Shown: positions 1,210 through 47,073 of the stretch, one piece after another | How the letters are laid out: every line of letters begins with the position of its first letter | How positions within the stretch are numbered: the stretch's first letter is position 1 | Assembly (NCBI GenBank): GCA_964425325.1 | Contig: CAYRLX010000005.1 | Span: 1 to 60,454, forward strand | Reading direction: 5' to 3' | DNA length: 60,454 nt | Source: an uncultured Muribaculaceae bacterium | GTDB lineage: Bacteria; Bacillota_I; Bacilli_A; RF39; UBA660 | The notes under the pieces: generated by a model | Told to the model about the DNA's origin: nothing | What the model saw: the letters and a program-made list of their open reading frames with translations, nothing else | Databases searched by the model: none | Program-made: the position numbers and the translations under genes

Positions 1210-1285
1210 TGGCAGGGGAAGCAGGATTTGAACCCACGACATTCGGTTTTGGAGACCGACGTTCTACCAGCTGAACTATTCCCCT
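1210..1285 (-). tRNA. trnW: tRNA-Trp (anticodon CCA)
   Basis: The reverse complement reads AGGGGAATAGTTCAGCTGGTAGAACGTCGGTCTCCAAAACCGAATGTCGTGGGTTCAAATCCTGCTTCCCCTGCCA. It has a 7-bp acceptor stem AGGGGAA/TTCCCCT, anticodon loop CTCCAAA, a GTTCAAATC T-loop and an encoded CCA; 76 nt. Confidence 0.9.
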
Positions 1286-7704: not shown

Positions 7705-10290
7705 ATGGTACTGATTCTAATTATTGCTGTAATAATATTAATAGTAGAAAATGATAAAAAAAATAAAGAATTATTTTCACTCAAAAAACAAATAGAAAAT
7801 AAAAACATAAATTTTTGTCCAAAGTGTGGCTATAATTTCAATGAAAAAAAAGAAACTATTAAAAAGCCTATTAAAGCAGTATCCAAACCAACAGAAAATA
7901 TTAATATAATACAAAATAATAAAAAAACTAAAAATAGTGAAATTAATAATAGTTGGATATTAATAACAGGATCCGTTTTAATTATATTAAGTGCTATAGT
8001 ATTTTTAACTGCAACATGGACTATTACCCATAGCTTTATAAAAACTATAATTATAATACTTATGTTTATAGTCTTTGAAGGAGTAAGCAAAATAGCAAAA
8101 GAAAAAAATTTAAAACAGACATCAAAAACTTTTCATTATATCGCCCTAGCCTACATTCCAATAATGCTTATATCTTTATTCTTTTTCGGATACATTGGAG
8201 AAATTCTAAGGGCATTTAAAGTGGCAAGAAGAATATATTTAACCATAAGTGCCTCTGTTATAACTTACATTTATTACTATAACTATAAAAAAGACAAAAA
8301 CAATATAGTTGCCTGGGCAAGTATAATATCATCAATATTAACAGTAATATGTCTTACCTCTATATTAACATCAGATATAAGATACCATATTATAAGTCTA
8401 ATTATATATACTATAATTTTAGGACTATTATATTTAAAAGATATTTTTGTTTTTAATAATAAAATGCATAAAACAGTAATCGAAACACTAACATGTGCCT
8501 TATTTATATTATCAATTAAAAACAATATAGAACTAATTATAGATAATAAAATTAATATTCTAAATACTATGATTCCTATATTATTCATAGAAATTATATA
8601 CATTTATTTTAATAAAATTAAAAACTACAAAACAGATTTTAATACAATATATCCATTACTTATAATAGCAAGCTCTATTAATTTAACCTTTCTATTTGAA
8701 CCATACATAATAAAACAAATAATAATGTTAATAACAATTCTAGCTATAAATTTTATAAGTTTATTAAAAGATGAAAAAATATCAGAAAGTATGATTATAG
8801 AAACCTTAATCACAATGACATTTATGCACATAAGCGCGACATTCACAAAAGAATTATTTATAGTTCCTAACTACTTAATCACAATTACTGAAACAATACT
8901 TCTTTGGATTACATATCTTTACTCAAAAGATAAAGAAAACATGGCTATGGTTTCTACCGTAGGAATTATACTTAGTCTATTAAATTTAATAATCACAAAT
9001 AATATTAATTTAATAATATTCGGCTTTTCAATTTTATTATTATTAATAATATCGCTATTTATAAAAGAAAAAGAAATTAATAATGCATTTAAAAATATAA
9101 GTATCATCACATTCGTTTTATTCTCACTATCATACTATAATAATTCAATATTCTTAATATTACTATATACTATGTTTATCATTATAACTTTTATCCACGG
9201 ATATCAAGAAGAAGATATTATCAAAAAAATAATTTCTTATATCTATTTAAATCCGTTAATCATCTGGATAATGCTATATTTTAATGTGGATATAAAAACT
9301 ACCATGCTATGTGCTCCTCTATCAGCCACTATAATTACAATACTTGAATTTTTACTACCTAAACTAAAAACAAAAGAAAACAGCACATACATAATTATAA
9401 ACTACATAATCTCAATATTAATTTTTTCCACAATAAATCATACTATATTTAATTTTATATATTTAATATTAATTAACATACTATATATATTATATATAAA
9501 TAATAAAAAAGAGATATATTATTATATAATTCCATTGATATCTATAATTCCTTACGTACATTCAAATATATTTATAATAAATAACATAAATTATATGTAT
9601 GGATTATCATCTTTCCTATTATTGATCTCACTATATTTAAGTTATAGTAAGAAAAATGAATTGTTCTATGCACTATTTTATCTATATTCATTTTCACATT
9701 TCACTGCCTTTAATGACATAAAATATTTTAAATTACTCATATTATTATTAGGAACAATTACAATATATTTATCTGCAAATAAAGGAAAAGATTTTTTTAA
9801 AACACTTATATACTTACTATCATTCTATCTAATAAAACTGTTAATTATAGACTTTAAACTCGAGGAAATAGCATTTATAAACTATGGAGTTATCCTACTA
9901 TTTATTTCACTCATAACAAGAGATATTATAAAAAAACATACAGTTAATTACAAAGTGATTATATATATTGGTTATATTCTTACAAATATATCAGCATTTA
10001 TAAATTATTCATCTGAACAAGACGGAATATTATTTGTATTTTTACTAACACTATTTGTTTTAATTAGTTACACATACAAATTTGGCCCTGAATTTATCAC
10101 ATCAATTATATTCATATTAATCAACGTCTTAATACTAACTAGAACATTTTGGATAAATATACCATGGTACTTATACATACTATTAATAGGTAGCGTTTTA
10201 ATAGCTTTTGCAGTTAAGAATGAAGCATCTGAAAATAAAATTAAAAACAAAAAGAAATTAGATGATATTAAAAAGTACTTAGATCTATAA
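7705..10290 (+). CDS. large polytopic membrane protein with N-terminal zinc-ribbon (CPKCGYNF), function unknown
   Basis: 861-aa uninterrupted ORF in AT-rich DNA with more than 20 hydrophobic segments. Followed by a clean terminator. Confidence 0.6.
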   Translation: MVLILIIAVIILIVENDKKNKELFSLKKQIENKNINFCPKCGYNFNEKKETIKKPIKAVSKPTENINIIQNNKKTKNSEINNSWILITGSVLIILSAIVFLTATWTITHSFIKTIIIILMFIVFEGVSKIAKEKNLKQTSKTFHYIALAYIPIMLISLFFFGYIGEILRAFKVARRIYLTISASVITYIYYYNYKKDKNNIVAWASIISSILTVICLTSILTSDIRYHIISLIIYTIILGLLYLKDIFVFNNKMHKTVIETLTCALFILSIKNNIELIIDNKINILNTMIPILFIEIIYIYFNKIKNYKTDFNTIYPLLIIASSINLTFLFEPYIIKQIIMLITILAINFISLLKDEKISESMIIETLITMTFMHISATFTKELFIVPNYLITITETILLWITYLYSKDKENMAMVSTVGIILSLLNLIITNNINLIIFGFSILLLLIISLFIKEKEINNAFKNISIITFVLFSLSYYNNSIFLILLYTMFIIITFIHGYQEEDIIKKIISYIYLNPLIIWIMLYFNVDIKTTMLCAPLSATIITILEFLLPKLKTKENSTYIIINYIISILIFSTINHTIFNFIYLILINILYILYINNKKEIYYYIIPLISIIPYVHSNIFIINNINYMYGLSSFLLLISLYLSYSKKNELFYALFYLYSFSHFTAFNDIKYFKLLILLLGTITIYLSANKGKDFFKTLIYLLSFYLIKLLIIDFKLEEIAFINYGVILLFISLITRDIIKKHTVNYKVIIYIGYILTNISAFINYSSEQDGILFVFLLTLFVLISYTYKFGPEFITSIIFILINVLILTRTFWINIPWYLYILLIGSVLIAFAVKNEASENKIKNKKKLDDIKKYLDL

Positions 10291-20243: not shown

Positions 20244-21419
20244 CTATGAATTCGTACAAGTATTATCGGTAACAATTTTATAAGGATTTGAACTTGTACC
20301 GTCACCTTTTAATTTAACACATGAAATTAAATAAAAGGAAGGGTAAACATTACTTTCACCAGAAACCCCAAAAGGACCAGCATAACCTTCCGAACCTACA
20401 CCCCATGTACTTCCTACATACTGAGCTTGAGCTATTGTCATTGTCATATGATTAGTTGATTTAACCAACCAGTTCGTCGTTTTACAAGTTGAATAGTTTC
20501 CAGCCTGATAAGTATTTGAATATACTGTTCCACACAATGACGTATTTGTATTTGCTTTCACAAAATCTATCACACTAATTAGACCAATTTTACCTTGCCA
20601 CGAATATTGTTTTGCTTGATTAATATCCTCAGTTATTGTTTGTCCTGATGTGTAAGTAACTATTCCAGCATCAAATAAATGAGTAGCAATCAACGAATTA
20701 TAAGATAATCCATCTACCCAACCGATTATGTTTTGATAAGTACTTGAATTTCCTTTAGAACTTGTAGTAAGATACTTTCCTCCATTTAAATATACATTTA
20801 TATATGAATCATATTTTGGCAAATCATATGTTGTAGAACTTGAAAGATTTTTTAGTATCTTAGCCGAACCGTCACCAGAAGCATCTTTTAAAAGTATTCC
20901 AGATGAATTTCTCATTGTATCTGCACCACCCCATACACTACATCCATCAGACGCAAAAGACCAAAAACAATAATCAGTTGTAGTGCTAGAAGTTCTTGTT
21001 CCATTTTCTGATGACTTATATGTTACACCGCTTATAGCTGTAGAATAACCAGGATCCCATACAATATTTCCTATCGAATCATTTTTTATCACTTTTAATG
21101 TTCCGTCTGTTTCAATAGCAATCATTCTATATGTATCATTACCAAGTGTTAAATAGTTACATGGATCAGCTCCACGATAAATAAATCTACCTGCTTCATA
21201 TGGGTCTTGTACTAATTCCCCATTACCACAAGTGCCAGCAGTACTCTTTAATTGCTCTACTGTATAAGTCGTAGTTGGATGAACATTACCCTTTGCATTT
21301 AACCTAATAGTAGTTGAAAAAGCTGCATAACCTACGCTAAAAAACAAAAGCATAGAAAATGTTCCAAAAATTATCAAACTTTTCTGACGTTTTAATTTAC
21401 CTCTCTTAGTCAATCTCAT
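20244..21419 (-). CDS. secreted/cell-surface protein, paralog of 43976-45469, with VGYAAFS signal motif
   Basis: ATG at 21419 follows GGGTGG. Basic N-terminus, TM helix, then VGYAAFS. Shared blocks with the paralog: YRGA(D/N)P.NY, Y(S/T)W.G.I.L, TCKTTN.L.KS. Confidence 0.7.
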   Translation of the reverse strand: MRLTKRGKLKRQKSLIIFGTFSMLLFFSVGYAAFSTTIRLNAKGNVHPTTTYTVEQLKSTAGTCGNGELVQDPYEAGRFIYRGADPCNYLTLGNDTYRMIAIETDGTLKVIKNDSIGNIVWDPGYSTAISGVTYKSSENGTRTSSTTTDYCFWSFASDGCSVWGGADTMRNSSGILLKDASGDGSAKILKNLSSSTTYDLPKYDSYINVYLNGGKYLTTSSKGNSSTYQNIIGWVDGLSYNSLIATHLFDAGIVTYTSGQTITEDINQAKQYSWQGKIGLISVIDFVKANTNTSLCGTVYSNTYQAGNYSTCKTTNWLVKSTNHMTMTIAQAQYVGSTWGVGSEGYAGPFGVSGESNVYPSFYLISCVKLKGDGTSSNPYKIVTDNTCTNS

Positions 21420-21501
21420 ATATACCACCCTATCTTAATACAATTATAACCAAAAATAAAAAAAGAATCAATGTTTTGATTCTTAATTTTATATAATAAT
21501 T

Positions 21502-22884
21502 TTATCTTCTCTTATGTTCGTCTGATCCCGAAGCAATTAATGAATCTTGTCTAGTCTTTTTATTACTTAATAATTCCATTATAAAATCCTTTTTTGATTC
21601 ATCAAGTTCACCTTTAGAAATTAATTCTATTTGTAAATCTATCCACCTACCTAAATCTATATTTTTTGCCCTTTCATCATCCAAATCTACAAAACCTTTA
21701 TCTTTAAATATACTTTTTGCGGTTACAAAAAAATCTAACCATTTACTTTCAGATACACGTCTAAAATAATAATCATTCATTACATCATGAACATATTTTC
21801 CATTACTGAAATCAACTTCACCCATATCTAAACCAGAAACATTAGAAAGGGGATAATGGTTTAATTCTTTTCCATTAACAGTAAGTCTACTAGTTTTATT
21901 AGAAATAAGTAACTTTATATCTTCTCTTTTCCTATCACTAAGCTTATAAGAAGAAATATCCAAAATTTGTCTATCTAGCCATTCACCTAATCTTATTTCT
22001 TTAGCCCTTTCATCATCTAAATCAACATATCCCTTATCCTCTAATATACAAAGTGCAATATAAACATAATAATCAAAATTATCATCAGCCTTTTTAGGCA
22101 TCAAAGTATAATCTAATGAAAGTTCAGATAAAAGAAATTTTTCAACTTTTTGTATATCAAATTCTTCCTCAACTGATTTAAATTCAAATCCAATCTTTTC
22201 AAGTATATAAATTAAATGTTCATAATTTTTCTCAAATATTTTTTCTCTTTTTGCAGGATCTTCTAAATCAATTCTTAAATCATGCACTTCCTTATTAACA
22301 GAATCCTTTATTCTTTTAGCTGCAGTTCCATCTAAATGAAGATCATCAGTATCTTTTTTAGAAAAAAGTCCAAATAAAGAAATAACATTATTTTCAACAC
22401 TTTTTAAATATAATCTAGTCTGGTAATCTTTATATTTTTTATAACCTGCTAAATCCTTATAATTAGAATTATAATGAACAACTTTTTCTTTGTCACTTTC
22501 ATCTACACCATACAAACAGTATTCAAAAACTTTTCTTAAATGATGATCTATAGTCATTTTCTTCAAATCAGAATCTATAAAATAATTATATGCATCAGAT
22601 GAATTAAAAATAATCTTGTTTACAAAAGGAACTCTTTTACTAAAAGAATAACCATAATGTTCCATACATATTTTAATTTTAGCTTCAATTTCAGACAATA
22701 TTTCACTCGCATCTTCTTCACCAAAAGCCATATATTCTTTATAAGATTCTATCAAACTATAAATAAGATAATACATAATCTTTTTAAAATCAGATGACTT
22801 TTTATTTGGTAAATGATAATATACTTCCTCTACATCAACACTGTCAATTAACTCAAAATAAGCCTTCTTTACTTCTTCAATCAT
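21502..22884 (-). CDS. hypothetical cytoplasmic protein with two helicase-associated (HA)-like repeats
   Basis: 460 aa from the ATG at 22884 (after AGGTGA). Internal duplication: DKGYVDLDDERAKEIRLGEWLDRQ.. and DKGFVDLDDERAKNIDLGRWIDLQ.. Confidence 0.6.
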   Translation of the reverse strand: MIEEVKKAYFELIDSVDVEEVYYHLPNKKSSDFKKIMYYLIYSLIESYKEYMAFGEEDASEILSEIEAKIKICMEHYGYSFSKRVPFVNKIIFNSSDAYNYFIDSDLKKMTIDHHLRKVFEYCLYGVDESDKEKVVHYNSNYKDLAGYKKYKDYQTRLYLKSVENNVISLFGLFSKKDTDDLHLDGTAAKRIKDSVNKEVHDLRIDLEDPAKREKIFEKNYEHLIYILEKIGFEFKSVEEEFDIQKVEKFLLSELSLDYTLMPKKADDNFDYYVYIALCILEDKGYVDLDDERAKEIRLGEWLDRQILDISSYKLSDRKREDIKLLISNKTSRLTVNGKELNHYPLSNVSGLDMGEVDFSNGKYVHDVMNDYYFRRVSESKWLDFFVTAKSIFKDKGFVDLDDERAKNIDLGRWIDLQIELISKGELDESKKDFIMELLSNKKTRQDSLIASGSDEHKRR

Positions 22885-22970
22885 TAATATCACCTAAATA
22901 CATTATATCAAAAAATATTAATTTATAAAAATAAAATAGGTAATATATTCCAAAAATAACTGTAAAATGT

Positions 22971-36863: not shown

Positions 36864-37027
36864 TAATGTACCCTCCTCTCGCCTATATCTAAGTATAGAC
36901 TTGCTCCGTGCAAAAACCCGAATAACCATTTTAAATATTTTACAACTTAACCTGGCGTATCGGCAACCTCGCACATCTTCGCATGCCACACATTCAAAAT
37001 TATACACAATAATTATATGAAAATCAA
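36864..37027 (-). promoter_or_regulatory. S10 operon promoter plus ~129-nt GC-rich structured leader
   Basis: Minus strand has TTGATT (37022-37027), a 17-nt spacer and TG-extended TATAAT (36999-37004). The leader GTGTGGCATGCGAAGATGTGCGAGGTTGCCGATACGCCAGG.. is far more GC-rich than its surroundings and is stop-free in one frame. Confidence 0.65.
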
Positions 37028-40708: not shown

Positions 40709-40790
40709 ATCTATCTCTCCTTCCGCCATGACTAAAATAAGTCATAGAAATTCACAAGTAAATATATTCTAGCAAACTTCTTTTTAAAAA

Positions 40791-43356: not shown

Positions 43357-43896
43357 TTAAGACAAATATTTTTTAAGAATTTCTTCTACTAAAGACTTAT
43401 ACTCTACCTTATCATTTTCTTCACCTTCTATCAAACATAAAGGAGGAAATAAAACACACCACCAATTATCACCCTCACCTTTTCCCAAAGTAATAAGTAA
43501 AGATTCATAATACCCCTCTTCGTATTTCACACCCTTATATTCTTTTTCTGGAAAATAATTATAACCATAATTAATCTTATAACCTAAATTATAACTACTA
43601 TCACTTAATACCTTTTTTACATCATTATCCACTAAATCCAAATTATTTTTTATAATCTCACTAGCTTCTTTACTACTTCTAGCATCTTTTAATAAATCAT
43701 ACATAGTAATCTCTAATTTATCTCTAACACTTTTCTTAATACTCTGATCAAACTCAGAATTACTATTAGGAATAATTCTAATTCTAAGAGCATCATTAGG
43801 AATAGTTAAACCCTTAACAACACTTTTAGAAACAAACATATAAAATACAAAAATTACCATTAATAAAATAATACTCTTTTTCATATTATCACCCAC
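43357..43896 (-). CDS. spoIIR: stage II sporulation protein R
   Basis: LRIRIIPNSNS and WWCVLFPPLC motifs; signal anchor. Confidence 0.85.
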   Translation of the reverse strand: MGDNMKKSIILLMVIFVFYMFVSKSVVKGLTIPNDALRIRIIPNSNSEFDQSIKKSVRDKLEITMYDLLKDARSSKEASEIIKNNLDLVDNDVKKVLSDSSYNLGYKINYGYNYFPEKEYKGVKYEEGYYESLLITLGKGEGDNWWCVLFPPLCLIEGEENDKVEYKSLVEEILKKYLS

Positions 43897-43975: not shown

Positions 43976-45469
43976 TTATCCTACAATTCTGTACATATCT
44001 TCTGACGATTGTCCACCATTTCCACTAAGTTTGATATTAGATTTTAGATGGAGAACTGGGCGAACTGAGCCGTTCTGGTGTCTCGCATTGGAGTAGTAGA
44101 CACGGCCACTATTCGCAAGGAACTCGAAGTTCGCACCAGCGGAATTCGGCGAAAGCAACCAATACCAATAACCTGATTTATAAAGATAATTTGTGGTTTT
44201 ACATGTATCATTTTGATAATTATCATATAAATATTTAGCATTCGAACAATCAGCGTTACCATGAGCTCTTATATACTCTGATTTTGTCGCTAAAGCTATA
44301 TCTCCTGTCCATGTATATGCTTTTTCCATATCTTCAAGCTCAGATATTGTTAAAGAATCATTATATACTCCAGCATGTCCTACATTCCATTTCATTCCTG
44401 TTTGAACATATTGTAAATCGGATAAACTATTTTTATATATACTATTTAAATATGTATTAAGTTCTGCATCTTCGGTTACTTGATCACTTGCATAATAATT
44501 TCCAGTTCCAGTATTTGCAAAACTACTCATAGCTGCCCACGCATTACACCCAGACTGCTGTGCATAACTGTTTGAACAATATCCGCTTGTTCGTCTTCCT
44601 GTTGCACCTGATGCATCAAATCTTCCTAGTAAACTATTTGATGTATTAACTCCACTATATCCAGTTAAATCTATTCTTTCATCTTTAATTATTTTTAAAT
44701 TACCAGATGAATTTATACTCATTATTCTCCATACTTCATTATTAAATTCTATATAATTATCTGGATTTGCTCCTCTATAGTAATACTCTCCTGCATTACT
44801 ATCATAATAAAGGCCATCTCCTGAAGAAACTAAAGGGAATGTATTTTCATCAAATGTAACTCCATCTATAAATTCCATTCCACCATTTCCATCATCTTGT
44901 TCTACATTTATTCCAACACTAATTGTTTGTGTTTCTCCTGTGTATGGTCCTGTAATATCAATATTATTTTGAAATTTAGCTACTACTTTCATAGTTGTTT
45001 CTTGATTAGATGTAAGAGTGGAAGATTCTGGCATGTGAATAATAAACTGTACGTTTCCTTTCGTTATAGTCGTATCTGCTGTTAATGAGTCTTCTCCTAC
45101 TGTGATACTTTTTATATCTGCTGTTATACTACTTTTATTCTTAATTGTTAATGTATATTCTATTTGATCACCTGGTTGTTTAAAATTAGCTGTTAATGAT
45201 GCATTTGGTACATAACTTGTCTCACATGCAGTACCTGAATAACTCATTGTTCCAGTTGGTGTTGTTCCTTCTGCAATACCAGCTGATGCAATATATGTAT
45301 TCTTTTTAGAATTATCAAATCCTACACACCATGAATTTGTTATATTTGCCGTTCCATTTATTGTAAGAAGTGATGAAAATGCTGCATACCCTACTCCCAT
45401 AATTACTAGTATTGCACATAATCCAATTATTATATAATTTCTTTTATCAGTTCTTATTTTTAGATTCAT
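43976..45469 (-). CDS. secreted/cell-surface protein with VGYAAFS signal motif and lectin-like C-terminal tip
   Basis: 497 aa. Basic N-terminus, TM helix, then VGYAAFS. Extra beta-rich N-terminal domain. The C-terminus YWYWLLSP...GSVRPVLHL resembles the W(S/L)S..VR(C/P)V tips of DUF1566/CLec-like domains. Confidence 0.7.
   Translation of the reverse strand: MNLKIRTDKRNYIIIGLCAILVIMGVGYAAFSSLLTINGTANITNSWCVGFDNSKKNTYIASAGIAEGTTPTGTMSYSGTACETSYVPNASLTANFKQPGDQIEYTLTIKNKSSITADIKSITVGEDSLTADTTITKGNVQFIIHMPESSTLTSNQETTMKVVAKFQNNIDITGPYTGETQTISVGINVEQDDGNGGMEFIDGVTFDENTFPLVSSGDGLYYDSNAGEYYYRGANPDNYIEFNNEVWRIMSINSSGNLKIIKDERIDLTGYSGVNTSNSLLGRFDASGATGRRTSGYCSNSYAQQSGCNAWAAMSSFANTGTGNYYASDQVTEDAELNTYLNSIYKNSLSDLQYVQTGMKWNVGHAGVYNDSLTISELEDMEKAYTWTGDIALATKSEYIRAHGNADCSNAKYLYDNYQNDTCKTTNYLYKSGYWYWLLSPNSAGANFEFLANSGRVYYSNARHQNGSVRPVLHLKSNIKLSGNGGQSSEDMYRIVG
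44048..44158 (-). other. compositionally anomalous 111-bp patch inside the CDS (candidate variable region)
   Basis: Hand count gives 60 of 111 G+C, against clearly AT-rich flanks. Coding-strand A is 21 of 111. 14 of 37 codons end in C (AAC TTC TTC GGC GTC TAC TAC TCC CAC AAC GGC..). Confidence 0.85.
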
Positions 45470-45601: not shown

Positions 45602-46810
45602 TTAATCCTCCAATAACCATTCTATTATATTTTTATGAATAATTCCATTTCTAGACTGATCTAACTTATCCATTGATATAACATATTTAGGATAGTTATC
45701 ATCAATACTATTATATGCATTAAATTCTCTTTCAATAGTTCTTTCATCAGATAAAATATAACAAACTTGATAATATTCTTTTTTACCATCTTTTAATGCA
45801 ATAAAATCTATTTCACCATTATCTAAAGAACCAATTTTTACATCATAACCTCTATATATTAATTCATTATAAACTATGTTTTCAATATATGCACCTATTT
45901 GTTCTTTTTTAGATATATTCATTATTCTACCCAAGCCTAAATCTGTTAAATAGTACTTATATTTCCCATTTAAAATTCTCTTGCCTCTTACATCATATCT
46001 ATCAACTTTATTTATTAATAAAGCTTTACTCATATATTCCAGATAATTATACAAAGTATTTTTTGTTACACCTCTATTTTCTGATTCAAAATACCTCACT
46101 AAGCTTTCTGCTGAAAAAGTTTGAGCAGGTGTTGATAATATATATTCTACTATTCTATTAAACAAATCTATGTCTTTAACTTTAAATCTTTCCACAATAT
46201 CTTTAACTACAATAGAATTATAAACATCAGTTAAATATGTTCTTATTTGTTCTTCACTATCAAATATAAACCTTTGTGGCATTCCACCCCACCACATATA
46301 GTCTTCAAAATCTTGCTCTAGTTCATACTTACTTTTACTATTACATTCTTTTAAAACACATACTTCTTTAAATGAGAATGGTAATATTTTAAAGCTTACA
46401 TACCTACCAGCTATATGAGTAGCAAGTTCACCAGATAATAAATCACTATTAGATCCAGTTATAAAAATTGATATATTATTTTTATAATCTGATTTAAATG
46501 AATTAACTGCCAATTCCCATCTTTCAATATTTTGAATTTCATCAAAAAATAAGTAGTATTTTTTATTATCTATCATTTTATCTTTAATATAATTATATAA
46601 ATCATCATCATTTTTGATAAAAGAATATTCCTTTGACTCAAAATTAATATAAATAATATGTTTATCATCAATTCCATTTTTTTTAATTTCATCAATTATT
46701 TGAAGCAAAATAACTGATTTACCACAACGCCTAATACCTGTAATAACTTTTATAAGGTCAACATCATAAAAGGGTCTAATTTTAGATAAATAAATATCTC
46801 TAATAATCAT
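45602..46810 (-). CDS. AAA_14/DUF4143-family ATPase
   Basis: ATG at 46810 follows GAGAGGTGA. Walker A GIRRCGKS, Walker B LFFDEIQ, and a C-terminal restriction-endonuclease-like DUF4143 region. Confidence 0.8.
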   Translation of the reverse strand: MIIRDIYLSKIRPFYDVDLIKVITGIRRCGKSVILLQIIDEIKKNGIDDKHIIYINFESKEYSFIKNDDDLYNYIKDKMIDNKKYYLFFDEIQNIERWELAVNSFKSDYKNNISIFITGSNSDLLSGELATHIAGRYVSFKILPFSFKEVCVLKECNSKSKYELEQDFEDYMWWGGMPQRFIFDSEEQIRTYLTDVYNSIVVKDIVERFKVKDIDLFNRIVEYILSTPAQTFSAESLVRYFESENRGVTKNTLYNYLEYMSKALLINKVDRYDVRGKRILNGKYKYYLTDLGLGRIMNISKKEQIGAYIENIVYNELIYRGYDVKIGSLDNGEIDFIALKDGKKEYYQVCYILSDERTIEREFNAYNSIDDNYPKYVISMDKLDQSRNGIIHKNIIEWLLED

Positions 46811-47073
46811 CAAATCACCTCTCGATTCAATTATATAACGTTTTAATTTCTTTGTCAATTTTGTATTCTTTGAAATACAAAATTGAATAAATATTTTTTT
46901 TTGTATTCTAAAATTTAATTTACCATTTATATTATTATATGTTTATTTCTACAAAATAAACTTACAAAAAAAATAATATAAAAAAATTTTTAATTAATAT
47001 ATTTAAATGAATCCTATCAAAGAATAATAAAAGAATGATTTTCATCATCCTTCTATATAAATTCAATTATATT

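What the first reader, a model, noticed from the sequence alone, without database searches (positions are those of the whole stretch)
44048..44158. GC-rich, adenine-poor, NNC-codon patch at the C-terminal tip of a secreted protein: candidate DGR variable region
The composition switches abruptly inside the 497-aa secreted protein gene. By hand count, 60 of 111 nt are G+C, while the flanks of the same gene are clearly AT-rich. Coding-strand A drops to 21 of 111. 14 of 37 codons end in C (AAC TTC GAG TTC .. GGC CGT GTC TAC TAC TCC .. CAC CAG AAC GGC), alongside TCG, CCG, GCG and CGC codons that look rare elsewhere in this window by eye. The patch encodes LLSPNSAGANFEFLANSGRVYYSNARHQNGSVRPVLH. That is the stretch between the W-x-S and VR-x-V landmarks that forms the ligand-binding tip in DUF1566/C-type-lectin-like DGR targets. 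DGR template repeats are rich in AAC codons, and adenine-specific mutagenesis turns them into NNC codons in the variable region near the 3' end of the target gene. The paralog at 20244-21419 has ordinary composition in the equivalent region. No reverse transcriptase, Avd or template repeat is visible in this window, so this would be a remote or orphan target. The alternative is a recombination mosaic from a higher-GC donor.
Basis: partly seen in the sequence, partly recalled or inferred. Interest (0 to 1): 0.8.

Follow-up and report, generated by a model that had tools for sequence, protein, structure and literature searches.

The report
DGR variable region, cassette not in window
The GC-rich patch is the variable region of a surface-protein gene that a diversity-generating retroelement rewrote; it is a clear but ordinary example of a known system, and the reverse transcriptase and template lie outside this contig or have been lost.

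Summary
Window 44051-44160 (-) is the most GC-rich stretch of the 28.5%-GC contig. It is adenine-poor and full of C-ending codons that are rare elsewhere in the window. The DGR reading is supported. Across 13 orthologue clusters, amino-acid variation is confined to aa 442-467. At the DNA level, five independent VRs vary at 29 of 33 positions that are adenines in a template repeat, against 8 of 77 other positions (p=3e-15). I deduced that template repeat and then found it independently in a related metagenome contig (L012), followed by a MutS-like/bAvd fusion gene and a reverse transcriptase gene cut off by the contig end. The window VR differs from it at 14 of 33 adenines and 6 of 77 other bases. 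A paralogue locus (L004) and a more distant complete cassette (L013: 20 of 34 A sites, 0 of 75 non-A) show the same signature. The VR sits on a beta-hairpin of an enlarged C-type-lectin-like domain. The GC-richness belongs to the TR and VR only (the cassette genes are 19% GC), so this is not an HGT mosaic. The window has no TR, Avd or RT. The VR is identical in five 99%-identical variants, and five inspected RT relatives are broken. Current activity is therefore unknown. This is a new member of a known kind.

The parts
43976..45469 (-). DGR target gene, 497 aa. It has an N-terminal hydrophobic helix (signal or anchor), a beta-sandwich middle domain, and a C-terminal enlarged C-type-lectin-like (DUF6273-like) domain.
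   Evidence: ORF. Weak Pfam DUF6273 hit at aa 409-477, E 2e-4, below the gathering score. More than 1000 homologues. AF2 model pLDDT 84.
44051..44160 (-). Variable region (VR), 110 nt. It encodes aa 437-473, with hypervariable residues at 442-467.
   Evidence: Homology to the L012 TR runs exactly over this span: 20 mismatches, 14 at the 33 TR adenines and 6 at the 77 other bases, p=5e-5. Columns that vary among 5 VRs: 29/33 at TR-A against 8/77 elsewhere, p=3e-15. Entropy is 1.76 bits here against 0.33 bits in the rest of the protein.
44051..44071 (-). Nearly invariant GC-rich 3' block of the VR (GGCTCAGTTCGCCCAGTTCTC). It is a candidate IMH-like element. It differs from the L012 and L004 TRs by one T/C (VR CCAGTTCTC, TR CCAGCTCTC).
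   Evidence: The T/C difference is seen in all six VR sequences compared, against both full TRs. The L019 contig starts with the same TR end, AGCTCTC. The function is inferred, not tested.
43979..44851 (-). C-terminal domain (aa 207-497) that carries the VR on a surface beta-hairpin (strands at aa 448-453 and 456-461).
   Evidence: AF2 domain model pLDDT 91, pTM 0.91. Foldseek top PDB hit is 9qa6, the T. ramosa IgA peptidase, E 1e-6; its N-terminal domain is described as an enlarged CTLD (PMC12237041). Top BFVD hits are DUF6273 phage proteins.
43935..43952 (-). Intrinsic-terminator-like hairpin plus T-run just after the stop codon. Only about 80 nt separate the target gene from spoIIR, so there is no room for a TR downstream.
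   Evidence: terminator scan; Spore_II_R at 43357-43896.

Best explanation
The patch is the variable region of a diversity-generating-retroelement (DGR) target gene. A template repeat (TR) of about 110 nt, about 51% GC and rich in AAC/AAT codons, is transcribed and then reverse-transcribed by a DGR reverse transcriptase that misincorporates opposite template adenines. The resulting cDNA replaces the VR at the 3' end of the target gene. Scaffold residues (LLSP, S, A, F, A, G, V, A, GSVRPVL) are encoded in the TR mostly by adenine-free, largely G/C-ending codons, so they are copied faithfully. The Asn codons become NNC/NNT codons. Together these explain the abrupt GC-rich, A-poor, C-ending composition in a 28%-GC genome. 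The VR forms a beta-hairpin with flanking loops on an enlarged C-type-lectin-like domain of a protein with an N-terminal signal or anchor helix; I infer this is a ligand-binding surface. The cassette that serves this VR type has the order TR, then MutS-like/bAvd, then RT (Architecture D of Wu et al. 2018). It is not on this 60-kb contig, so the gene is a remote (trans) target or an orphan left after the cassette was lost. What is shown: the VR, the adenine-specific pattern, the TR/Avd/RT in relatives, and the fold. What is inferred: that the same cassette exists or existed in this genome, the IMH role of the 3' block, and the binding function. I put roughly even odds on the element still being active in this genome.
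For: (1) Composition. (2) Protein alignment of 13 orthologue clusters (80-100% identical to the window protein): mean pairwise identity among them is 0.40 in aa 442-467 and 0.86 elsewhere, and 15 of 26 VR columns have at least 5 residue types against 4 of 471 outside. (3) DNA: the invariant blocks of the VR are conserved even at synonymous sites. Variable columns fall at codon positions 1/2/3 as 16/15/6, whereas the 150 nt upstream gives 5/4/17. (4) I deduced the TR by setting every variable column to A. A peptide search with its translation then found P0135, an ORF over a real TR in contig L012 that matches the deduction except at a few positions and is followed by a MutS_I+bAvd protein and an RVT_1 fragment. 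(5) Window VR against the L012 TR: 14 of 33 A sites and 6 of 77 non-A sites differ (p=5e-5). Three of the six non-A differences are shared by all VRs, so they are private to the L012 TR or reflect an IMH/IMH* difference. Two more are explained by the ACT codon seen in the L004 TR. (6) Same-contig TR-VR pairs: L004 has 17 of 20 mismatches at A (p=3e-8), and L013, with an intact 353-aa RT, has 20 of 34 A and 0 of 75 non-A (p=4e-13). (7) RT relatives carry IGNMTSQ and YMDD. (8) CTLD-like fold: and PMC10743442. (9) Avd and RT genes are 19% GC while the TR is 51% GC, and TR non-A positions are 73% GC.
Against: There is no TR, Avd or RT in the window (blastn and tblastn), and the rest of this genome could not be searched. 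The deduced TR core was absent from the genome, metagenome and viral collections, although the genome collection also lacked any VR of this type, so that scan has no positive control. The matching TR comes from another sample, not from this genome. The VR is identical in five 99%-identical protein variants that differ at 7 positions elsewhere, and other lineages also keep one VR across samples. The window VR has one private non-A change (AGA, third position). Five RT genes related to the L012 RT were inspected, and all are frameshifted or truncated.
Confidence: 0.9

Rival explanations
1. Fossil VR. The patch was written by a DGR, but the cassette has been lost or inactivated in this genome, so the sequence is now a frozen allele evolving normally.
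For: No cassette on the contig. The VR is identical in five near-identical variants from different assemblies despite 7 substitutions elsewhere. Five inspected relatives of the L012 RT are defective: P0175, P0172 and P0186 are frameshifted, P0197 ends in YMDGATV, and P0183 stops 32 aa after YMDD. In L004 the TR survives but an Rpn-like gene replaces Avd-RT. A paralogue (P0023) has a VR already decayed towards AT and is identical on the four contigs fetched, from four samples.
Against: The window VR's non-A positions still match the TR at 71-76 of 77 sites, with no AT drift, although this genome has GC3 of 0.16. The last rewrite was therefore recent relative to synonymous divergence in the flanks. 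MAG bins routinely lose the short contigs on which TR-RT loci assemble (L012 and L019 are about 2 kb), so absence from the contig says little.
Confidence: 0.45
2. Recombination mosaic: the patch was imported by horizontal transfer or gene conversion from a higher-GC donor.
For: An abrupt compositional switch inside the gene.
Against: The same GC-rich invariant blocks recur in the VRs of all five window-type genes compared at the DNA level, with only adenine-templated positions differing, and the hypervariable stretch recurs across about 58 family members at the protein level. The source of the composition is the TR, which sits among 19%-GC cassette genes in the same low-GC clade. No foreign match turned up in the genome, metagenome or viral pattern scans.
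Confidence: 0.02
3. Ordinary diversifying selection, or paralogue gene conversion on a binding loop, without a retroelement.
For: The gene belongs to a large paralogous family, and its C-terminal domains are shuffled between loci: L009 carries a VR-bearing paralogue where the window has a VR-less one.
Against: Selection would not keep synonymous sites of the scaffold codons invariant while randomising only codon positions 1 and 2, and it would not confine change to positions that are A in an untranslated repeat next to an RT.
Confidence: 0.03

Closest known systems
DGRs with an MSL (MutS-like) accessory gene plus avd, Architecture D of Wu et al. [quoted passage not shown]
   Same: The cassette in relatives has a TR, then a MutS_I-like plus bAvd accessory, then an RT. 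Mutagenesis is adenine-specific. The VR lies at the 3' end of the target. None of the cassettes or remnants seen in relatives sits among recognisable phage structural genes; those in L004 and L016 lie next to housekeeping genes.
   Different: Here MSL and Avd are fused into one 240-246-aa protein in L012 and L019, and are separate in L013 and L022. The target is not adjacent to the cassette in this window.
Treponema denticola DGR with multiple remote targets (TvpA family), cited in PMC5758913
   Same: One TR type serves several dispersed paralogous targets with C-type-lectin-fold VRs. The remote-target situation is the same.
   Different: Per PMC5758913, Treponema represents the HRDC-containing architecture rather than the MSL one. 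From my own knowledge, not tested here, its target domain is FGE-sulfatase-type rather than DUF6273-like. Here the genomic distance is unknown, apart from there being no cassette on the 60-kb contig.
DUF6273-domain DGR targets of gut phages, e.g. tentaclins (PMC10743442)
   Same: A DUF6273-like C-type-lectin-like domain whose VR forms a beta-hairpin flanked by loops. My model shows strands at aa 448-453 and 456-461, and the top BFVD matches are DUF6273 proteins.
   Different: Those are phage receptor-binding proteins, some with the VR near the 5' end. This is a chromosomal gene among housekeeping and sporulation genes, with an N-terminal signal or anchor helix and a C-terminal VR.
N-terminal domain of Thomasclavelia ramosa IgA peptidase (PDB 9qa6; PMC12237041)
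   Same: It is the only significant solved-structure match to the VR-bearing domain (Foldseek E 1e-6, probability 1.0). Its NTD is described as an enlarged, roughly 290-residue CTLD related to the Legionella Lcl C-terminal domain.
   Different: There is no detectable sequence similarity, and that protein is not reported as a DGR target in that paper. I infer from domain size and description that the match covers the NTD; the tool gave no aligned residue ranges.

Membership tests
Diversity-generating retroelement (target/VR) | A VR-TR pair of about 100-150 nt whose differences fall almost only at TR adenines | tested here: met
   Window VR against the L012 TR (from a related contig): 14 of 33 A sites and 6 of 77 non-A sites differ, p=5e-5, and 5 of the 6 non-A differences are attributable to TR polymorphism or an IMH difference. 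Among 5 VRs, 29/33 against 8/77 variable columns. A TR from the same genome was not available.
Diversity-generating retroelement (target/VR) | A DGR-clade reverse transcriptase (RVT_1 with IGxxxSQ and YxDD) encoded next to the TR | tested here: met
   Met in relatives only. L012 has an RVT_1 fragment directly after TR-Avd. L013 has an intact 353-aa RVT_1. Relatives carry IGNMTSQ and YMDD. Not met inside the window: tblastn found nothing. The rest of this genome could not be searched.
Diversity-generating retroelement (target/VR) | An accessory variability determinant (Avd) or another known accessory gene in the cassette | tested here: met
   In relatives: bAvd at 38.3 bits (gathering score 40), E 2e-9, and MutS_I at 31.1 bits (gathering score 20.6), in the L012 240-aa protein. 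bAvd is also recorded in L013, L019 and L022. None is in the window.
Diversity-generating retroelement (target/VR) | VR at the 3' end of the target gene, displayed on a C-type-lectin fold | tested here: met
   The VR ends 75 nt before the stop codon. The domain model (pLDDT 91) matches 9qa6, whose NTD is described as an enlarged CTLD (E 1e-6). The weaker hits are largely CTLDs (Lcl C-terminal domain, NKR-P1, LOX-1).
Diversity-generating retroelement (target/VR) | IMH at the VR 3' end distinct from IMH* in the TR, with or without a downstream hairpin | tested here: inconclusive
   There is a consistent single T/C difference (VR CCAGTTCTC, TR CCAGCTCTC) in a GC-rich block. The minimum-free-energy fold of the 140 nt running from inside the VR's 3' end shows no GC-rich hairpin just downstream of the VR. 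Function was not tested.
Diversity-generating retroelement (target/VR) | Ongoing hypervariation of the VR within a population | not testable with these tools
   No reads were available. At the level of assembly consensus, the VR is identical in five 99%-identical variants, which neither shows nor excludes activity.
Pfam DUF6273 | Sequence match at or above the Pfam gathering score | tested here: not met
   21.6 bits against a cut-off of 23.5 (E 2e-4, aa 409-477). Many homologues carry the precomputed PF19789 hit, and the structural matches are DUF6273 proteins. It is therefore DUF6273-like rather than a scored member.

The most novel reading that the evidence does not exclude
An uncultured, spore-forming, low-GC Bacilli clade (several of the sample names match a ruminant-gut metagenome study, which is my inference) may run a chromosomal MSL-Avd-RT DGR. 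On this reading the DGR rewrites, in trans and over long distances, a dispersed multi-paralogue family of secreted proteins whose enlarged lectin-like domain resembles the IgA-peptidase N-terminal domain. The RT is repeatedly lost (different lesions in different lineages, often next to Rpn/PDDEXK_2 genes), leaving frozen or decaying VRs. That would be a natural cycle of diversifying and then freezing, and the window gene would be one snapshot of it.
Probability: 0.35. Interest if true: 0.5.

Novelty: new member of a known kind. Interest (0 to 1): 0.35.

Why it matters
The result shows that a purely compositional cue can pinpoint a DGR target even when the retroelement is not on the contig. The cue is a GC-rich, A-poor, C-ending-codon island at the 3' end of a secreted-protein gene in an AT-rich genome. 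RT-anchored surveys state that they miss this class (Roux et al. 2021, PMC8144416). The result also adds a chromosomal target family with a DUF6273-like enlarged CTLD. It documents TRs, fused MSL-Avd accessories and several independently broken RTs in one clade, which bears on how long DGR-written alleles persist after the writer is lost. None of this changes the known DGR mechanism.

Tried and rejected
1. TR inside the window: blastn with word size 7, using the patch and then the deduced and real TRs, found only the VR itself.

2. Exact scans for the deduced TR core found nothing in genome contigs, metagenome contigs or viral contigs. An N-masked pattern that matches both VR and TR found nothing in genome contigs or viral contigs, and only two further VRs (L009, L010) in the metagenome collection. 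The genome collection evidently lacks this clade, so its negative result carries no weight.

4. RT next to paralogues: the loci of P0008, P0006, P0026, P0023 and P0017 show no RT within 10 kb on either side. The 45-aa GIIM ORF upstream of the L004 target is a degenerate group II intron, not a DGR RT.

5. NCBIfam gave nothing meaningful for the target, and no SipW-type or pilin model matched. I considered a TasA- or pilin-like N-terminus but it remains unsupported.

6. A profile search of PDB sequences found no hit.

7. Rfam found no family on the TR loci.

8. One comparison of the window VR with the L004 TR was out of register and is disregarded.

9. The HGT-mosaic and plain-selection readings are rejected for the reasons given under the rival explanations.

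Full report
**Observation.** The window is a 60,454-bp, 28.5%-GC bacterial contig with ribosomal-protein operons, murA and sporulation genes. Relatives are labelled 'Bacilli bacterium' MAGs.

The gene at 43976-45469 (-) encodes a 497-aa protein. Near its 3' end the composition jumps to 54-56% GC. This is the highest value of any 111-nt window in the contig (mean 0.285, sd 0.065). The other three peaks lie at a tRNA-Trp and within ORFs of the ribosomal-protein gene cluster.

In the 36 codons TTG...CTC:
- 14 end in C, against 5% of codons in the other window genes.
- GC3 is 22/36 against 0.16 (p=7e-10).
- Coding-strand A is 0.19, against 0.41 in the rest of the gene.
- TCG, CCG, GCG, CGC, GGC, GTC, TCC and CTC are each 1-7% of their synonymous family elsewhere.

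**Hypervariability.** A protein search returned more than 1000 relatives. In 13 orthologue clusters 80-100% identical to the window protein, variation is concentrated between the invariant YWYWLLSP and GSVRPVL:
- Mean column entropy is 1.76 bits for aa 442-467 and 0.33 bits elsewhere.
- Mean pairwise identity among the 13 is 0.40 in that stretch and 0.86 elsewhere.
- 15 of 26 columns there have at least five residue types, against 4 of 471 elsewhere.

The same pattern holds across about 58 more distant family members. A roughly 390-aa subfamily shares only the N-terminal module and has no VR.

**Nucleotide signature.** I fetched DNA for orthologues and paralogues. The VR consists of GC-rich blocks that are invariant even at synonymous sites, interrupted by variable dinucleotides. 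Variable columns fall at codon positions 1/2/3 as 16/15/6. The 150 nt just upstream shows the ordinary 5/4/17. This is what repeated overwriting from a shared template with randomised adenines predicts.

**Finding the template.** Setting every variable column to A gave a deduced TR. Its core was absent from the genome, metagenome and viral collections. The genome collection also lacked any VR of this type, so that negative result carries no weight. Two independent routes then found real TRs.

- **Route 1, paralogue locus L004.** A blastn search with the deduced TR against all fetched loci hit L004 11689-11802, about 170 nt downstream of that paralogue's stop codon. It reads LLSPNFTNVNNVFNANSGNVNNNNANNQNGSVRPAL. 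It differs from its own VR at 20 of 108 positions, 17 of them TR adenines (p=3e-8).
- **Route 2, contig L012.** A peptide search with the translated TR returned P0135, an ORF lying over a TR in contig L012. This TR is nearly identical to my deduction. It is followed by a 240-aa protein with MutS_I and bAvd domains, and then by an RVT_1 ORF cut off by the contig end.

The window VR (44051-44160) aligns to the L012 TR without gaps over 110 nt, with 14 mismatches at 33 adenines and 6 at 77 other bases (p=5e-5). Of the six non-A differences:
- Three are shared by all VRs. They are either private variants of the L012 TR or the VR/TR distinction CCAGTTCTC versus CCAGCTCTC.
- Two are explained by the ACT codon present in the L004 TR.
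- One (AGA, third position) is private to the window.

Across five independent VRs, 29 of 33 TR-adenine columns vary, against 8 of 77 others (p=3e-15).

A more distant relative (L013-L015) has a complete cassette: target, TR, a 126-aa MutS-like protein, bAvd, and a 353-aa RT. Its TR-VR mismatches are 20 of 34 at A and 0 of 75 at non-A. RT relatives carry IGNMTSQ and YMDD. The gene order with MSL plus avd corresponds to Architecture D of Wu et al. 2018 (PMC5758913).

**Why GC-rich.** In L012 the Avd and RT genes are 19% GC while the TR is 51% GC, and the TR's non-A positions are 73% GC. The anomaly therefore belongs to the template itself, not to a foreign donor. Scaffold residues are encoded mostly by adenine-free codons (TTG CTT TCG CCG, TCC, GCG, TTC, GGC, GTC, CGC, CTC), which shields them from adenine mutagenesis. 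Randomising the AAC/AAT codons lowers A from 33 to 20 of 110. The extra preference for G/C over T at third positions is unexplained; it may serve cDNA-target pairing (inference).

**Fold.** AlphaFold2 with an 82-sequence alignment gave pLDDT 84 for the whole protein and pLDDT 91 (pTM 0.91) for aa 207-497 alone. The VR forms a beta-hairpin (aa 448-453 and 456-461) with flanking loops.

The only significant PDB match is 9qa6, the Thomasclavelia ramosa IgA peptidase (E 1e-6). Its N-terminal domain is described as an enlarged C-type-lectin-like domain related to the Legionella Lcl C-terminal domain (PMC12237041). The weaker hits are largely CTLDs. The best BFVD matches are phage DUF6273 proteins, a domain already reported as a C-lectin-like DGR target (PMC10743442). 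Pfam DUF6273 itself scores just below its threshold.

**Where is the cassette, and is it active?** The window has no TR, Avd or RT. A terminator follows the stop codon, and spoIIR starts 80 nt downstream. I could not reach the rest of the genome.

Evidence that bears on activity:
- The VR is identical in five 99%-identical variants that differ at seven positions elsewhere. Other lineages likewise keep a single VR across samples.
- Five RT genes related to the L012 RT were inspected, and all are defective, each with a different lesion.
- In L004 an Rpn-like gene replaces Avd-RT.
- The paralogue P0023 has a VR that has drifted towards AT.
- Against this, the window VR still matches the template at nearly all non-A sites, with no AT drift, so it was rewritten recently relative to flank divergence.
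- TR-RT loci assemble on contigs of about 2 kb, which binning discards.

I therefore hold the DGR origin at about 0.9 and current activity at roughly even odds.

**Comparison and verdict.** This is a remote or orphan DGR target of a known mechanistic class. Remote targets are documented, for example in Treponema (PMC5758913). Roux et al. (PMC8144416) note that RT-anchored metagenome surveys miss them. The system is a new member of a known kind.

Noticed in passing
L016 10001-11118; L019 1043-2025; L020 10001-11120; L022 3208-4089; P0197: Five reverse-transcriptase genes related to the L012 RT were inspected, and all are defective, each with a different lesion. Three have frameshifts before or after YMDD, one ends in 'YMDGATV', and one stops 32 aa after YMDD. 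None of the 120 best RT hits exceeds 293 aa.
   Followed up: partly
L016 8882-12100; L004 11941-12501; L001 8928-9770; L005 1402-2256: Rpn-family / PDDEXK_2 genes flank the DGR remnants or targets. In L004 a truncated Rpn-like gene sits where Avd-RT should follow the TR. In L016 such genes bracket the broken RT.
   Followed up: partly
window 20244-22893; L009 2219-4739; L016 8312-12100: The locus just downstream of rplQ differs between the window, L009 and L016. The window has a VR-less 394-aa paralogue plus a 463-aa ORF. The near-identical relative L009 (p463 96% identical) has a 351-aa paralogue whose C-terminal 283 aa are 87% identical to the window's target, with an intact VR. L016 has the broken RT at this site.
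   Followed up: partly
window 45602-46858 (-); L013 2859-4136; L009 4854-6065: An AAA_14/DUF4143 ATPase lies beside or near the target gene in three different genomic contexts. It may be a coincidence or an associated gene.
   Followed up: no
L012 586-1308; L019 316-1056; compare L013 6282-7003 and L022 2482-3233: The MutS-like (MSL) and bAvd accessory proteins are fused into one 240-246-aa protein in the cassettes closest to the window type. They are separate genes in the more distant cassettes.
   Followed up: partly
L004 9130-9773: A degenerate group II intron lies between rpoC and the DGR target. It has a 45-aa GIIM-domain ORF and an Rfam Intron_gpII hit at 9698-9773 (30.3 bits, below the gathering score, E 7e-4).
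   Followed up: partly
L012 261-470; L004 11803-12000; L019 1-210: About 200 nt downstream of the TR (TAAAACACTATGGG...ATATGGACATACCGAAAAGATTGGA...) is visibly similar by eye between cassettes, even in L004 where Avd-RT is gone. It could be the spacer RNA used for priming cDNA synthesis.
   Followed up: no
window 45350-45469 (-) and the full-length model; L001 12966-13349; L003 1326-1733; L005 11620-12027: The target's N-terminus is a long hydrophobic helix followed by a beta-sandwich, with a weak Foldseek match to the Sulfolobus AAP pilus subunit (8q30, E 3e-3). Prepilin-type N_methyl genes lie next to paralogues in several loci. No pilin or SipW model matched.
   Followed up: no
L005-L008 VR (e.g. 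L005 11334-11439): Paralogue P0023 carries a VR whose scaffold codons have drifted to AT-rich synonyms (GGC to GGT, GTC to GTT, CGC to AGG). It is identical on the four contigs fetched, from four samples (L005-L008). This is an example of a decaying orphan VR.
   Followed up: yes
window 1210-1285, 36879-36987, 40717-40747 (all -): A tRNA-Trp, an S10-Clostridia ribosomal leader and an L31-Firmicutes leader. These are ordinary features; the tRNA accounts for one of the other GC peaks.
   Followed up: yes
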